NCBI GenBank assembly: GCA_964562245.1
Contig: CAZLSF010000001.1
Location: forward strand, 1-45,902
Length of the DNA: 45,902 nucleotides
Direction of reading: 5' to 3'
DNA from: an uncultured archaeon
Lineage (GTDB): Archaea > Aenigmatarchaeota > Aenigmatarchaeia > QMZS01
Position 1 is the stretch's first letter; each line of letters begins with the position of its first letter. This document shows, in pieces, positions 2,699-4,753 of the stretch. The notes below the pieces were generated by a model that saw only the letters and a list, made by a program, of their open reading frames with translations, made no database searches and was not told where the DNA came from. Position numbers and translations under genes: made by a program.

Positions 2699-4486
2699 AT
2701 GAATCTAAAAAAATTACAGGAATTTCTCGGTTCTGGCGGGGATTTGGTTGAATTACCAGACTATTTTTCAATTATTGTGAATGAAAGAAAGTTTGAGTTT
2801 AGAAGAACTCCTAAGAAAGCTCAAAAATTGCTAAAATACCCAAGAGAAAAGTTAATGGAAGAAATAAAATGGCCCCAGAATGTGGGAACCTATGATATAG
2901 GAGATGTTGCAAACCCTGTTATGTTAATCTGCCCGTCGCAAGACAGGGAATTGCAAGAACATGCAATTTATGCAGGAGTGTGCGCAACAGGACCCTGTTT
3001 AACCCCAAGGGGAGTCGAACTCCTGATAACAAATACAATCTCAAACCCAAATATAAGATTTTTGATTCTTGCTGGAAGAGATTCAGGGCATTTAACTGGG
3101 GATTTAATTGAAAATTTAATATTGAACGGAGTTGATGAAAATAGAAAGGTAATAGGCACAAAGTGTCCGTCGTTCCCTTACCTGCCAAACCTGAGTTTAG
3201 AAGCAATAAACAAATTCAGGGAACAATTAGAGGTTATAAATTTGATTGGTGTTTTTGATCCCACTTTGATAACTCTGATAATAAGACTTTGCTTGCAGGA
3301 ACCAAGTAATGCTTATGAATTAACCTATGAAGAAAAAGTTTCACCTCTATTTAAGCAAATCAAGAACCCAAAGAAAATTACTCATACTTTATTTGATAAA
3401 GGAACTGAAAACAAAGAACCTATGGTGTTGTCTTATTCTTTAGTGGACTTGCAGTCCCTGCCTTATGAAGCATTTTCAACAACAGGAACCACGGTTTACG
3501 CTTCCACAGTCGAGGAAGCGCATAGAATACTTGTTGACTTTTTAAAAAGAGCCGGGGTGTGGGTAAAACAAGAAAGCAATAGGATGGGTCTGGATGTAAT
3601 AGCAACAACAATTGTTGTGGAAAATCTTGAGCAGGGTCTTTATCCAAAAAATTACAAACCTGTGGAATGGGTTGATTCTGATGAAAAAATGAAACAATAT
3701 TTAAAGGCTTACGGTGTGTGGAATTATTTAGTTCCATGGAGCAATGTTGTGTTTGATGAAAGTCTTGATAAAACAGTTCCTTCTATTCCTGACATGAAAT
3801 ATCTTTCTTATTCTTATGGAACCAGGATTACCGCAAAGGGAATGGATTCATGCAAAAAAGAAGAGAAAGAAGGAATCATAAAATTAGTGAAATCTTTTCA
3901 GGAAAAGTATTATGAAAAAGTTCCTGACTTTAAATCAATTCTTAATTTTTACCATGATTTAAAAGAGATTCAAAAACAAAGTTTTAATCAATTGCTGGCA
4001 GTTACCAAAGCAGGCTCCATTATTATTAAAGATAATATTACCGGGACTTACAGGCCTTATTTACAATTGCACGTTGCGGATGATTTAAGACCTATTGACC
4101 CGAGAAAAATGCATAATCCTTGTTATTGTATGTTTGTTCCTTTTTTCAGGAAAACTTATTATAGGGAATATAATAAAGATGGAGTTACACGCAGATTTTT
4201 AGTTCCTTCTTTAAATGGTGAAAAAGAAAAAGATTTAAAGTATGATTGGTTGTTTATGCCTTCAGCTTATTTAAGGGCTCATGACTGGTTTGCTTTTCCA
4301 GCGAATGTCCACGGATCTTTAGCCATGGGGAACTTTATATTGCAGTACCTTGAAAAAGAAACAGGGAAAAAAATTCCATGGGGTTGTTATTCACATCATG
4401 CTTCATCATTGCATCTTGTTGATTATTCTCTTGATAAAGACCTGATTGAAAAACTTAACAGGACTTTGCCTTCAGATAAAAATTGA
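2699..4486 (+). CDS. fusion protein: N-terminal MtrA-like (tetrahydromethanopterin methyltransferase subunit A / DUF4346-like) domain plus C-terminal thymidylate-synthase-like domain
   Basis: The N-terminal part aligns by eye with MtrA: WPQNVGTYDIGD..PVMLI...ATGPCLTPRGVELLITNTISNPNIRFLILAGRDSGHLTGD...NGVD. The C-terminal part carries ThyA core motifs: YSYGTRI, NPCYCMFVPFFR (the catalytic-Cys position of PCHxxxQFYV), YLRAHDWFAFPANVHG (RSxDxxLGxPFN) and SSLHLVDY (THLYxNH). Confidence 0.65.
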   Translation: MNLKKLQEFLGSGGDLVELPDYFSIIVNERKFEFRRTPKKAQKLLKYPREKLMEEIKWPQNVGTYDIGDVANPVMLICPSQDRELQEHAIYAGVCATGPCLTPRGVELLITNTISNPNIRFLILAGRDSGHLTGDLIENLILNGVDENRKVIGTKCPSFPYLPNLSLEAINKFREQLEVINLIGVFDPTLITLIIRLCLQEPSNAYELTYEEKVSPLFKQIKNPKKITHTLFDKGTENKEPMVLSYSLVDLQSLPYEAFSTTGTTVYASTVEEAHRILVDFLKRAGVWVKQESNRMGLDVIATTIVVENLEQGLYPKNYKPVEWVDSDEKMKQYLKAYGVWNYLVPWSNVVFDESLDKTVPSIPDMKYLSYSYGTRITAKGMDSCKKEEKEGIIKLVKSFQEKYYEKVPDFKSILNFYHDLKEIQKQSFNQLLAVTKAGSIIIKDNITGTYRPYLQLHVADDLRPIDPRKMHNPCYCMFVPFFRKTYYREYNKDGVTRRFLVPSLNGEKEKDLKYDWLFMPSAYLRAHDWFAFPANVHGSLAMGNFILQYLEKETGKKIPWGCYSHHASSLHLVDYSLDKDLIEKLNRTLPSDKN

Positions 4487-4753
4487 GAAAAACAAGAAGA
4501 ATATGAATAAAGCAAGCAGGGCGGTTAATGCAGTTCTTGCACTTCCAACTACAAATTTGCTGAGAAAATATACTAATGGGGTTAAGACCATAAATGCAAT
4601 TATAACACCCGAAGGACCGCCAACAGTAATTCCATACGCAAGGGAATTGATGAGTTGTATAAATAATGAAAAAACTGTGACAATGGTTGTAATTGTATTT
4701 GATAAGATTACATAAAAAATCTGGAATAGAATGGACAATGGCGAGTTTACCAT
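4472..4753 (-). CDS. small hydrophobic membrane protein (93 aa), hypothetical
   Basis: ATG start and 2-3 predicted TM helices. It converges on the previous gene and overlaps it by 15 nt. I prefer it over the + strand ORF 4446..4715, which mostly overlaps it and looks less protein-like. Confidence 0.45.
   Translation of the reverse strand: MVNSPLSILFQIFYVILSNTITTIVTVFSLFIQLINSLAYGITVGGPSGVIIAFMVLTPLVYFLSKFVVGSARTALTALLALFIFFLFFSIFI

What the first reader, a model, noticed from the sequence alone, without database searches (positions are those of the whole stretch)
2699..4486. MtrA-like domain fused to a divergent thymidylate-synthase-like domain
The first ~200 residues align convincingly by eye with the soluble part of methyltransferase subunit MtrA and its DUF4346-type homologs (GPC..T...G.E.....N.ISNPNIRFLIL.G....GH.TG......NG.D). 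The last ~330 residues keep the ThyA catalytic constellation: the Cys of PCH, the R-x-x-D of RSxD, the Asn of PFN and the His of HxY. Large insertions interrupt this part.

ThyA needs a methylene-pterin C1 donor. MtrA-family domains are associated with C1/corrinoid or pterin metabolism. The fusion therefore hints at a dedicated carrier or donor-binding module for dTMP (or another 5-methyl/hydroxymethyl pyrimidine) synthesis, in an organism that probably lacks normal folate or H4MPT pathways. I do not know of a characterised member with this architecture.
Basis: partly seen in the sequence, partly recalled or inferred. Interest (0 to 1): 0.6.

Follow-up and report, generated by a model that had tools for sequence, protein, structure and literature searches.

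The report
B12-type domain fused to thymidylate synthase
A tiny symbiotic archaeon has none of the usual thymine-making enzymes or folate one-carbon enzymes that I searched for, but it carries one gene joining a vitamin-B12-binding domain to a strongly diverged thymidylate-synthase domain, which is probably how it makes thymidylate and may be an undescribed B12-linked route.

Summary
ORF 2699-4486 (+, 595 aa) is one intact gene.

- **N-terminal half.** Residues 57-207 are an MtrA-type corrinoid domain (Pfam E 5e-34; structural Z 24 to solved MtrA). The cobalt-ligand His and the tail-pocket residues are conserved.
- **C-terminal half.** Residues 259-582 have the ThyA fold (profile-profile 99.4%, E 2e-20; Z 16-19). 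The Cys nucleophile, Arg-x-x-Asp, Asn and the dimer-loop Arg are kept. The folate-closing C-terminus is missing and the Glu58 position varies.
- **Genome.** This ~89%-complete Aenigmatarchaeota genome shows no ThyA, ThyX, thymidine kinase, SHMT, FolD, MtrH or pterin-binding methyltransferase. It does have dCMP deaminase, thymidylate kinase, a B12-dependent RNR and CobA.
- **Relatives.** Sister genomes without the fusion have ThyX plus SHMT. In Patescibacteria and one other archaeal contig the gene lies next to dCMP deaminase, thymidylate kinase or both.
- **Phylum survey.** Of 301 genomes, those with only long or fused ThyA-like genes rarely have SHMT (10% against 76%).

Most likely it is the cell's thymidylate synthase, using a corrinoid-borne one-carbon unit. 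The chemistry and the one-carbon source are untested.

I found no paper describing this. This scan has flagged the same theme on other DNA (55 findings, at least 48 genomes).

The parts
2699..4486 (+). Whole gene: MtrA-type domain plus ThyA-fold domain, 595 aa
   Evidence: Single ORF. Full-length homologues are 35-99% identical. AF2 model has mean pLDDT 84.9.
2699..2866 (+). N-terminal extension (residues 1-56): helix, beta-hairpin, helix. Conserved K-Y-P-R-E motif. No known family.
   Evidence: Alignment A1. Secondary structure from the model. Outside the Pfam MtrA envelope.
2867..3319 (+). MtrA-type Rossmann-like corrinoid-binding domain (residues 57-207)
   Evidence: PF04208 at E 5.3e-34. 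5LAA at E 2.3e-28. Z 24.4 to 5L8X.
3089..3091 (+). His131, equivalent to the cobalt lower axial ligand His84 of MtrA; invariant in 24 of 24
   Evidence: Alignment to 5LAA. Role of His84 from PMC4915002. Conservation.
3005..3007 (+). Pro103 at the position of MtrA Glu54, which hydrogen-bonds to His84; invariant Pro in the family
3320..3472 (+). Interdomain linker (residues 208-258); residues 248-257 have pLDDT below 50
3473..4444 (+). Diverged thymidylate-synthase-fold domain (residues 259-582), ending where E. coli ThyA residue about 228 would be
   Evidence: hhalign 99.4%, E 2.2e-20. Foldseek. VIA-align Z 16-19. ESM Atlas nearest clusters all PF00303.
3839..3991 (+). Insertion A (about residues 381-431): two to three helices between the Tyr94-equivalent and the Arg126/127-equivalent loop
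   Evidence: Unaligned block in hhalign. Helices 387-403 and 411-424 in the model.
4052..4054 (+). Arg452, equivalent to ThyA Arg127 (phosphate-binding Arg donated across the dimer); invariant
   Evidence: Lies in the predicted homodimer interface.
4118..4123 (+). Pro474-Cys475, equivalent to the ThyA Pro145-Cys146 catalytic nucleophile
   Evidence: Cys in 23 of 24, Ser in P0006.
4154..4246 (+). Insertion B (about residues 486-516): beta-hairpin present only in the archaeal long forms of the family
   Evidence: Alignment A1, columns 735-775. hhalign gap.
4274..4306 (+). Arg526-Ala-His-Asp529 ... Pro534-x-Asn536, equivalent to ThyA Arg166, Asp169, Pro175 and Asn177 (dUMP phosphate and uracil recognition)
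   Evidence: R526, D529 and P534 are invariant; N536 in 22 of 24.
4412..4426 (+). His572-x-Val574-Asp575-Tyr576. His matches ThyA His207. The Tyr209 position is Val or Cys. The Asp-Tyr pair is conserved across the family: Asp in 24 of 24, Tyr in 22 of 24 (Trp in the other two).

Best explanation
The gene most likely encodes this archaeon's thymidylate synthase, built differently from ThyA and ThyX.

Shown:
- The protein joins a His-on MtrA-type corrinoid domain to a dimeric ThyA-fold domain.
- The ThyA-fold domain keeps the dUMP-activating machinery: Cys475 nucleophile, Arg526, Asp529, uracil-reading Asn536, Tyr373, and Arg452 reaching across the dimer.
- It lacks the folate-closing C-terminus, and the position of the folate-chemistry Glu58 is not conserved.

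Inferred mechanism:
1. dCMP deaminase supplies dUMP.
2. Cys475 adds to C6 of dUMP.
3. The resulting C5 carbanion takes a one-carbon unit held on the cobalt of the fused domain, most simply a methyl group from methyl-Co(III). This gives dTMP directly and leaves Co(I).
4. Thymidylate kinase takes dTMP onward.

Not identified: how Co(I) is re-loaded. No methyl-pterin:corrinoid methyltransferase, SHMT, FolD or SAM synthetase was found in this genus, so the donor is probably scavenged from the host.

My odds: about 0.7 that the enzyme makes dTMP from dUMP, and about 0.4 that a corrinoid carries the carbon. The confidence value given is for the combined statement.
For: (1) Domains and residues.

(2) Cobalamin-contact residues of solved MtrA (PMC4915002) map to conserved residues here: His84 to H131 (24/24), Asn64 to N112 (24/24), Thr53 to T102 (23/24), Gly57 to G105, Tyr18 to Y65 (Tyr or Phe). 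The meander P-Y-x-x-N maps to P160, Y161, N164.

(3) The cell uses cobalamin. Its only RNR is the adenosylcobalamin class II type (TIGR02504, 684 bits against a cut-off of 400). CobA adenosyltransferase is present.

(4) No other route to dTMP was found. PF00303, PF02511 and thymidine kinase gave no match in G000 and its fusion-bearing relatives, while thymidylate kinase (4 of 5 genomes, not in G027) and dCMP deaminase are present.

(5) Complementarity within the genus. G000, G138, G211 and G260 have the fusion and no ThyX. G016 and G060 have ThyX and no fusion. This was rechecked with the lineage's own ThyX as the query.

(6) Neighbourhoods elsewhere:
- dCMP deaminase, fusion, Tmk (L034, L051).
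- dCMP deaminase, fusion, Tmk, ThyX, SHMT (L031).
- fusion, Tmk (L049).
- dCMP deaminase, fusion, with CobA and an RNR large-subunit gene (class not determined) 2 kb away (L032).

(7) SHMT independence. SHMT was found in 0 of 7 genomes with this family and in 6 of 59 genomes whose only ThyA-like gene is a long or fused ORF. It was found in 135 of 177 genomes with ThyX or canonical ThyA. In the window's taxonomic family, the three ThyX genomes all have SHMT, and in G060 SHMT is not linked to ThyX.

(8) The predicted homodimer scored ipSAE 0.88 against a best control of 0.00. That mark was reached by 20 of 30 solved pairs of one chain and by 1 of 23 single chains. The runs share at least 73% of contacts and the partner pLDDT is 85. 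Arg452 lies in the interface. ThyA dimers are solved, so this shows likeness and may come from memory.

Against: - No enzyme that could methylate the corrinoid was found: no MtrH, no Pterin_bind, and no archaeal or bacterial SAM synthetase in genus g1. The cycle cannot be closed on paper.
- MtrA Glu54, the hydrogen-bond partner of the His ligand, is an invariant Pro here.
- Asp529, which corresponds to the pterin-contacting Asp169 of ThyA, is invariant. This also fits a pterin donor.
- The fusion is not strictly an alternative to other synthases. It sits in one operon with ThyX and SHMT in L031. Of 88 genomes with long ThyA-like ORFs, 29 also have ThyX or ThyA. G027 has this gene plus a second ThyA-like gene.
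- The related 'class I' proteins lack the His ligand yet are equally common in SHMT-less genomes. A His-on corrinoid is therefore not required for SHMT independence.
- From my own knowledge: no characterised enzyme transfers methyl from methylcobalamin to an enolate carbon outside the radical-SAM methylases.
- The genome is a MAG, 89% complete in 100 contigs, so absences are 'not found'.
- Related genomes are not independent samples, so the SHMT contrast is overstated statistically.
- No cofactor binding or activity has been measured.
Confidence: 0.45

Rival explanations
1. It is a thymidylate synthase that still uses a methylene-pterin (folate or H4MPT taken from the host) as carbon donor, as ThyA does. 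The MtrA-like domain then holds or positions the pterin, or is only a scaffold or regulatory domain, and binds no corrinoid.
For: The invariant Asp529 corresponds to the pterin-contacting Asp169 of ThyA. Relatives carry a domain that Pfam calls PterinBD-DUF4346. MtrA Glu54 is lost. In L031 the gene sits beside SHMT.
Against: His131 and the nucleotide-tail pocket residues of the cobalamin site are invariant, which is hard to explain without a corrinoid. The ThyA C-terminus that closes over folate is absent, and the Glu58 position varies (G, S, E, D, Q). Fusion-only genomes lack SHMT, and FolD was not found in the window's taxonomic family (13 genomes), so methylene-pterin could not be regenerated after each turnover.
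Confidence: 0.2
2. It makes dTMP using the corrinoid as the reductant rather than as the carbon carrier. A methylene donor supplies the carbon, and Co(I) reduces the exocyclic methylene intermediate. This parallels ThyX, which uses reduced flavin.
For: The same domain evidence applies as for the best explanation. It would explain co-occurrence with SHMT in some genomes. From my own knowledge, cobalamin acts as a reductant in QueG and in reductive dehalogenases.
Against: No Fe-S motif or electron-input domain is present in the protein (alignment). Most fusion-only genomes have no SHMT to supply the methylene donor.
Confidence: 0.1
3. It modifies a pyrimidine nucleotide in some other way (for example 5-hydroxymethylation of dUMP or UMP, as dCMP/CMP hydroxymethylases do), and dTMP comes from uptake.
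For: The best sequence and structure matches include MilA CMP hydroxymethylase (E 0.06; Z 17) and the phage dCMP hydroxylase AfhB (Z 19). G027 carries this gene alongside another ThyA-like gene.
Against: Asn536 is the uracil-reading residue of ThyA, not the Asp of the cytosine enzymes, and it is conserved in 22 of 24. The gene sits in housekeeping dCMP deaminase/Tmk operons of cellular genomes. It is complementary to ThyX within a genus. No thymidine kinase was found for salvage.
Confidence: 0.1
4. It is a decayed, non-catalytic relic or a regulatory protein.
For: It is very diverged from PF00303 (no direct hit) and has long insertions. One homologue (P0006) has Ser in place of the catalytic Cys.
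Against: Twenty-five positions of the C-terminal domain are invariant, including the catalytic set, across archaea and Patescibacteria at 35-40% identity. All frames are intact. Operon positions are conserved.
Confidence: 0.05

Closest known systems
ThyA, folate-dependent thymidylate synthase (Pfam PF00303; e.g. E. coli ThyA, L. casei TS)
   Same: Same fold (Z about 16, 210 residues aligned). Profile-profile E 2.2e-20. Equivalents of Cys146, Arg166, Asp169, Asn177, His207, Tyr94 and Arg127 are kept. A back-to-back homodimer is predicted.
   Different: No PF00303 hit. The last 36 or so residues that close over folate are missing. The Glu58, Arg21, Arg126 and Tyr209 positions are not kept. Two insertions are present. 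An N-terminal corrinoid domain is fused. It occurs in genomes where SHMT was not found.
Short archaeal (methanogen-type) thymidylate synthase, NCBIfam TIGR03283
   Same: A trimmed ThyA core without the folate-closing tail. This is the only thymidylate-synthase model that gives any signal on this protein (E 0.24, residues 266-336). From my own knowledge, its physiological one-carbon donor has not been settled.
   Different: The score (10.9 bits) is far below the cut-off (174.55). The short forms are stand-alone proteins of about 200-280 aa. In the tree, this family branches with the MtrA-fused class II proteins, not with the short forms.
MtrA and cytoplasmic MtrA homologues (PF04208; PDB 5LAA, 5L8X, 8Q3V), the corrinoid subunit of methyl-H4MPT:coenzyme M methyltransferase
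   Same: 35-38% identity over about 150 residues. Z 23-24 with rmsd 1.2-1.4 A. The His84 ligand, Asn64, Thr53, Tyr18 and the Pro-Tyr-x-x-Asn meander are kept.
   Different: No membrane anchor. No Mtr partners in the genome (MtrH not found). Glu54 is replaced by an invariant Pro. It scores below the NCBIfam equivalog cut-offs (109 against 249). It is covalently joined to a nucleotide-modifying domain.
Less diverged MtrA(His)+ThyA fusions ('class II': P0036, P0049, and a 445-aa protein of Ca. Methanoperedens at L056) and the MtrA-like+ThyA+DUF4346 three-domain proteins ('class I') of DPANN archaea. All are uncharacterised.
   Same: Same two-domain order. This family is one clade (support 100) nested among the class II fusions (support 96). 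All keep the Pro-Cys nucleophile.
   Different: In class II the ThyA domain is still recognised by PF00303. Class I has lost the His ligand and adds a C-terminal PF14251 domain. This family has extra insertions and an N-terminal extension.
Core methionine synthases MesA/MesB, predicted to take methyl groups from corrinoid proteins (Price et al. 2021, PMC7857596)
   Same: The same evolutionary logic: a catalytic core that has shed its folate-binding parts and is proposed to take methyl from an MtrA or CoFeSP corrinoid protein.
   Different: Unrelated fold. The acceptor is a thiol rather than a carbon. The donor protein is separate, not fused. Also only partly tested.
ThyX, flavin-dependent thymidylate synthase (PF02511)
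   Same: Fills the same metabolic slot. It alternates with this gene among genomes of one genus.
   Different: Unrelated fold and cofactor. In the window's taxonomic family, the ThyX genomes also carry SHMT and the fusion genomes do not.

Membership tests
ThyA / Thymidylat_synt (PF00303) | Matches the family HMM above the curated cut-off (24.3 bits) | tested here: not met
   No PF00303 hit even at E <= 1. The genome search with PF00303 finds nothing in G000.
ThyA / Thymidylat_synt (PF00303) | ThyA alpha/beta fold | tested here: met
   hhalign 99.4%, E 2.2e-20. Foldseek E about 1e-8 to many TS chains. VIA-align Z 15.5-19 over residues 259-582.
ThyA / Thymidylat_synt (PF00303) | Catalytic Cys146 nucleophile in a Pro-Cys motif | tested here: met
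   P474-C475. Cys in 23 of 24 homologues.
ThyA / Thymidylat_synt (PF00303) | dUMP phosphate-binding arginines (Arg21, Arg126', Arg127', Arg166) | tested here: inconclusive
   The Arg166 and Arg127 equivalents (R526, R452) are invariant. The Arg21 and Arg126 positions are Glu292 and Tyr451. Other invariant arginines (R376, R484; R295 in 18 of 24) might substitute.
ThyA / Thymidylat_synt (PF00303) | Asn177 reading uracil (Asp in the cytosine-specific relatives) | tested here: met
   N536, Asn in 22 of 24.
ThyA / Thymidylat_synt (PF00303) | Folate-handling elements: Glu58 and the C-terminal segment (residues about 229-264) that closes over the cofactor | tested here: not met
   The alignment ends at ThyA residue 228 and the protein ends about 20 residues later. 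The Glu58-aligned column reads G, S, E, D or Q. The alignment around Glu58 is of low confidence.
ThyA / Thymidylat_synt (PF00303) | Obligate homodimer with the active site shared between subunits | tested here: met
   Prediction only. ipSAE 0.88 against a best control of 0.00. That mark was reached by 20 of 30 solved pairs of one chain and 1 of 23 single chains. Runs share at least 73% of contacts; pLDDT 85. The R452 loop lies in the interface. The pass may reflect likeness to solved ThyA dimers.
ThyA / Thymidylat_synt (PF00303) | Catalyses dUMP + methylene-tetrahydrofolate -> dTMP + dihydrofolate | not testable with these tools
   Needs an enzyme assay.
MtrA (PF04208) | Matches the family HMM above the curated cut-off (25 bits) | tested here: met
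   117.8 bits, E 5.3e-34, profile positions 7-157 of 173.
MtrA (PF04208) | His84 lower axial ligand of cobalt (base-off/His-on) | tested here: met
   H131 aligns to His84 of 5LAA and is invariant. Actual cobalt ligation was not tested.
MtrA (PF04208) | His84-Glu54 hydrogen-bond linkage | tested here: not met
   The Glu54 position is Pro103 in 24 of 24.
MtrA (PF04208) | Nucleotide-tail pocket (Tyr18, Thr53, Gly57, Val61, Asn64) and the meander G-A-I-P-[FY]-x-E-N | tested here: met
   Pocket: Y65, T102, G105, L/V109, N112. Meander: P160, Y161 and N164 are conserved, but the Glu of the meander is not.
MtrA subunit of the Mtr complex (NCBIfam TIGR01111 equivalog) | Equivalog score, C-terminal membrane anchor, and MtrB-H partners | tested here: not met
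   109.4 bits against a cut-off of 249.15. The domain is followed by a ThyA-fold domain, not by an anchor. MtrH was not found in five fusion-bearing genomes.
PterinBD-DUF4346 (PF14251) | Matches the family HMM | tested here: not met
   No hit in this protein at E <= 1. The domain is present at the C-terminus of the class I relatives only.

The most novel reading that the evidence does not exclude
This is a member of a third kind of thymidylate synthase, alongside ThyA and ThyX. In this reading a ThyA-fold domain methylates dUMP with a methyl group carried on a fused MtrA-type corrinoid. No folate is needed, which lets ultra-small archaea and bacteria that lack SHMT and folate cycling make their own thymidylate. 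The same logic could explain the unresolved one-carbon donor of the short archaeal thymidylate synthases.
Probability: 0.35. Interest if true: 0.9.

Novelty: new variant of a known kind. Interest (0 to 1): 0.75.

Why it matters
Thymidylate synthesis is essential for all DNA-based cells. Only two enzyme types, ThyA and ThyX, are known, and both use methylene-folate. A corrinoid-linked, folate-independent enzyme would be a third route.

It would explain how many DPANN archaea and Patescibacteria without SHMT or folate cycling still make dTMP. It would add a new reaction type to B12 biochemistry, namely methyl transfer to a nucleotide carbon. It would also give a function to MtrA homologues outside methanogenesis, which are currently read as 'methanogenesis' genes in ancestral-state reconstructions.

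The question is directly testable with one recombinant protein.

Tried and rejected
- **Plain HMM scans of the C-terminal half.** Pfam and NCBIfam gave nothing usable. A family profile against PDB sequences gave only MilA at E 0.06. Profile-profile and fold comparison were needed.
- **The search for related loci with the C-domain alignment.** This failed because no stretch was conserved enough. The whole-protein alignment worked, but most of its 80 loci were ordinary methanogen MtrA.
- **Riboswitch search.** No cobalamin riboswitch or other Rfam family, apart from tRNAs, lies near the fusion in eight loci.
- **Neighbours in this window.** They are uninformative: rpS19/rpL22, DUF1512, SerRS and a generic HAD hydrolase.
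- **Asgard check.** I looked at one Asgard MtrA locus (L117) for an adjacent ThyA-like gene, following earlier scan notes. None was there. I did not test those notes further.
- **Literature.** Searches for MtrA, corrinoid or cobalamin together with thymidylate synthase, and for DUF4346, found no description of the fusion. This covers only the open-access library.
- **SAM as the donor made in the cell.** Neither SAM synthetase family was found in genus g1, so this idea has no genomic support there.
- **Assembly or frameshift artefact.** Rejected, because the frame is conserved in many assemblies.
- **Geometry between domains.** The distance between His131 and Cys475 could not be read, because model coordinates are not exposed. 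The pTM of 0.59 suggests the domain arrangement is uncertain.
Full report
**What is there**

Window 2699-4486 (+) is one ATG-to-stop ORF of 595 aa. It lies divergently from an rpS19-rpL22 pair and upstream of a small orphan ORF, SerRS and a HAD hydrolase. The window has about 31% G+C. The closest public relatives of the gene are in Candidatus Aenigmatarchaeota MAGs, at 93% and about 78% identity. The genome held for the window is 895 kb in 100 contigs and about 89% complete.

**N-terminal half**

- Pfam MtrA (PF04208) covers residues 57-207 at E 5.3e-34.
- phmmer finds solved MtrA chains 5LAA, 8Q3V and 5L8X at E 1e-22 to 1e-28.
- In the AlphaFold model (mean pLDDT 84.9, pTM 0.59) this part superposes on 5L8X with Z 24.4 and rmsd 1.3 A over 169 residues.

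I used the residue roles from the MtrA-cobalamin structure (Wagner et al. 2016, PMC4915002) together with the HMMER alignment to 5LAA. The mapping is:

| MtrA residue | Role | Here | Conservation |
|---|---|---|---|
| His84 | cobalt ligand | His131 | 24/24 |
| Asn64 | tail pocket | Asn112 | 24/24 |
| Thr53 | tail pocket | Thr102 | 23/24 |
| Gly57 | tail pocket | Gly105 | invariant |
| Tyr18 | stacks on the base | Tyr65 | Tyr or Phe |
| meander Pro-Tyr-x-x-Asn | loop | P160, Y161, N164 | conserved |
| Glu54 | H-bond to His84 | Pro103 | invariant Pro |

The one clear loss is Glu54. The protein scores below the NCBIfam MtrA equivalog cut-offs and has no membrane anchor. It is therefore a cytoplasmic MtrA-type domain, not the Mtr subunit.

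**C-terminal half**

Plain HMM scans fail. There is no PF00303 hit, and TIGR03283 scores only E 0.24. A 24-sequence family profile against PDB sequences gives MilA CMP hydroxymethylase at E 0.06. The decisive tests were these:

- hhalign of the family alignment against canonical and short ThyA sequences gives probability 99.4%, E 2.2e-20, over E. coli ThyA residues 1-228.
- Foldseek returns more than 400 matches at E <= 0.001. After the MtrA chains at the top, the listed rows are ThyA, MilA and phage dCMP hydroxylase chains.
- VIA-align gives Z 19 to the phage dCMP hydroxylase AfhB, Z 17 to MilA and Z 16 to ThyA, over residues 259-582.
- The ESM Atlas feature search returns only PF00303 clusters.

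Residue mapping:

| E. coli ThyA | Here | Conservation |
|---|---|---|
| Tyr94 | Y373 | invariant |
| Arg127 | R452 | invariant |
| Pro145-Cys146 | P474-C475 | Cys 23/24 |
| Arg166 | R526 | invariant |
| Asp169 | D529 | invariant |
| Pro175 | P534 | invariant |
| Asn177 | N536 | 22/24 |
| His207 | H572 | 18/24 |

Not kept are Arg21 (Glu292 here), Arg126 (Tyr451), His147 (Tyr476), Tyr209 (Val574) and the Glu58 column, which is variable, though the alignment there is weak. The last 36 or so residues of ThyA, which close over folate, are absent. Two insertions, roughly 381-431 (helical) and 486-516 (hairpin), interrupt the fold.

A two-copy prediction of this domain gave ipSAE 0.88 against a best control of 0.00. 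That mark was reached by 20 of 30 solved pairs of one chain and 1 of 23 single chains. Runs share at least 73% of contacts and pLDDT is 85. The R452 loop lies in the interface. ThyA dimers are solved, so this shows likeness rather than independent proof.

**The family**

A word-indexed search found 27 full-length homologues, all annotated with MtrA only. An exhaustive profile search of 1.84 billion representatives with the C-domain found just 32 proteins at E <= 1e-3. The distant ones fall into two groups:

- MtrA + PF00303 (P0036, P0049, P0041 and others).
- PF00303 + PterinBD-DUF4346.

Sampling long ThyA-like ORFs from genomes of the same phylum showed two architectures:

- **Class I.** A degenerate MtrA-like domain without the His ligand, then a ThyA core, then DUF4346; about 465-490 aa. 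This was the commonest form among the eight long ORFs I sampled: seven carry DUF4346 and six also carry the MtrA-like domain.
- **Class II.** An MtrA domain with the Gly-His ligand, then a ThyA core that ends right after the His-Ile-Tyr motif.

A quick maximum-likelihood tree of the ThyA domains puts the window's family in one clade (SH-aLRT 100), nested among class II fusions (96). These include a 445-aa protein from Ca. Methanoperedens. Full-length members of the window's family occur in Aenigmatarchaeota, in an NCBI protein record labelled Nanoarchaeota, in an uncultured archaeon, and in Ca. Saccharibacteria and other Patescibacteria.

**Context and distribution**

In this window the neighbours say nothing about function. 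Elsewhere the gene sits exactly where a thymidylate synthase would:

- dCMP deaminase, fusion, thymidylate kinase: L034 and the Patescibacteria locus L051.
- dCMP deaminase, fusion, Tmk, ThyX, SHMT: L031.
- fusion, Tmk: the Saccharibacteria locus L049.
- dCMP deaminase, fusion, with CobA and an RNR large-subunit gene (class not determined) 2 kb away: the archaeal contig L032.

Among 301 genomes of the phylum, strong matches to this family occur in seven: G000, G138, G211, G260, G027, G208 and G013. None of the seven has ThyX. Only G027 has another PF00303 gene, and that one is class I.

Within the genus, the four fusion genomes lack ThyX. The two genomes without the fusion (G016, G060) have a tandem-repeat ThyX. 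A search with that ThyX itself finds it only in G016, G060 and G160.

**One-carbon and B12 inventory**

Five fusion genomes were searched for the families below:

- Not found in any of the five: MtrH, SHMT, Pterin_bind, thymidine kinase and the archaeal SAM synthetase. The bacterial SAM synthetase was found in G027 only.
- Found: thymidylate kinase in 4 of 5, and an RNR large subunit in 5 of 5.

In 13 genomes of the window's taxonomic family, FolD was not found, CobA was found in 11 (including G000), and dCMP deaminase was found in all 13. G000's RNR is the adenosylcobalamin class II type (TIGR02504, 684 bits against a cut-off of 400). The cell therefore depends on imported cobalamin in any case.

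The three ThyX genomes of this taxonomic family all have SHMT. In G060 SHMT is not next to ThyX. Across the phylum sample, hand-tabulated:

| Genome group | SHMT found |
|---|---|
| ThyX or canonical ThyA | 135 of 177 (76%) |
| Only a long or fused ThyA-like ORF | 6 of 59 (10%) |
| Only a short ThyA-like gene | 3 of 32 |
| This family | 0 of 7 |

Relatedness and MAG incompleteness inflate this contrast, but its direction is clear.

**Mechanism**

Shown:
- The architecture and the retained dUMP-activating residues.
- A retained cobalamin pocket with its His ligand.
- A cobalamin-using cell.
- No other thymidylate route found.
- Operon placement between dUMP supply and dTMP use.
- No SHMT-fed methylene-pterin supply.

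Inferred:
- dUMP is the substrate and dTMP the product (my odds about 0.7).
- The one-carbon unit arrives on the corrinoid, most simply as methyl-Co(III) attacked by the C5 carbanion of the Cys475-dUMP adduct. This removes the need for the folate-dependent hydride step (about 0.4).

Unknown:
- What re-methylates Co(I).
- Whether a reductive activator exists.

Rivals are a pterin-using ThyA with a non-corrinoid accessory domain, a corrinoid acting as reductant, a different pyrimidine modification, and a relic. Their evidence is listed in the Rival explanations section.

**Comparison and novelty**

The ThyA fold and the MtrA fold are both known. The fusion has no characterised member, and I found no paper describing it in the open-access library. 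The nearest idea in print is that core methionine synthases take methyl groups from MtrA (PMC7857596).

I file this as a new variant of a known kind. It is not a member of PF00303 by the HMM criterion, though it is clearly homologous and probably works like ThyA on the nucleotide side.

This scan has reported the same theme before on other DNA: 55 findings in at least 48 genomes. One of them concerns a near-identical architecture (e1-1465870). Those notes were leads. Everything cited above was tested here.

- The genus-level ThyX/fusion alternation.
- The phylum-wide SHMT contrast.
- The class I / class II distinction and the placement of this family within class II.
- The residue-level audit of both cofactor sites.

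Noticed in passing
P0020 (735 aa, from a 6-kb public contig, alignment A1): One family member carries an extra N-terminal uracil-DNA glycosylase superfamily domain (PF03167) ahead of the MtrA and ThyA-like domains. This links the enzyme to uracil handling in DNA.
   Followed up: no
G027:C26:43211-43621 (locus L019:621-2078, minus strand) and G027:C10:673-1779: One genome of the same taxonomic family carries two ThyA-like genes: this diverged fusion and a three-domain MtrA-like + ThyA + DUF4346 protein. The two forms may therefore not be functionally identical.
   Followed up: partly
L021:911-2260 (minus strand), genome G137: A 449-aa ORF contains two ThyA-like halves in tandem (PF00303, two stretches). 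It may be a single-chain pseudo-dimer with no MtrA or DUF4346 domain.
   Followed up: no
L124:1447-2697 (+), genome G060; also G016:C46:5020-6261: The ThyX of the sister genomes is a 416-aa single chain with two weak Thy1 repeats (E about 3e-9 each). Many ThyX hits across the phylum are likewise two repeats within ORFs of 450-580 aa.
   Followed up: partly
window 4472-4753 (-): A 93-aa ORF with no family match overlaps the 3' end of the fusion gene by 15 nt on the opposite strand.
   Followed up: no
P0006 (Aenigmarchaeota, 54% identical): The catalytic Cys is Ser in this one homologue (motif H-T-P-S-F). This is either a sequencing error or a natural inactive or altered variant.
   Followed up: no
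L047 (6.2-kb contig labelled Candidatus Methanoperedenaceae): A full-length member of the DPANN-type family (40% identity) sits on a short contig binned to a methanotroph. The contig may be mis-binned. A genuine class II fusion does occur on a 109-kb Methanoperedens contig (L056).
   Followed up: partly
G000:C89:698-3124 and G000:C23:4458-5096: The genome's only detected ribonucleotide reductase is the adenosylcobalamin-dependent class II type, and a CobA adenosyltransferase is present. This small symbiont therefore needs an external corrinoid.
   Followed up: yes
Literature: PMC13473441: Ancestral reconstructions count MtrA (arCOG03221) as a methanogenesis gene. MtrA domains fused to ThyA-like enzymes in DPANN and Patescibacteria could affect such inferences if they fall in the same orthologous group. 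I did not check this.
   Followed up: no
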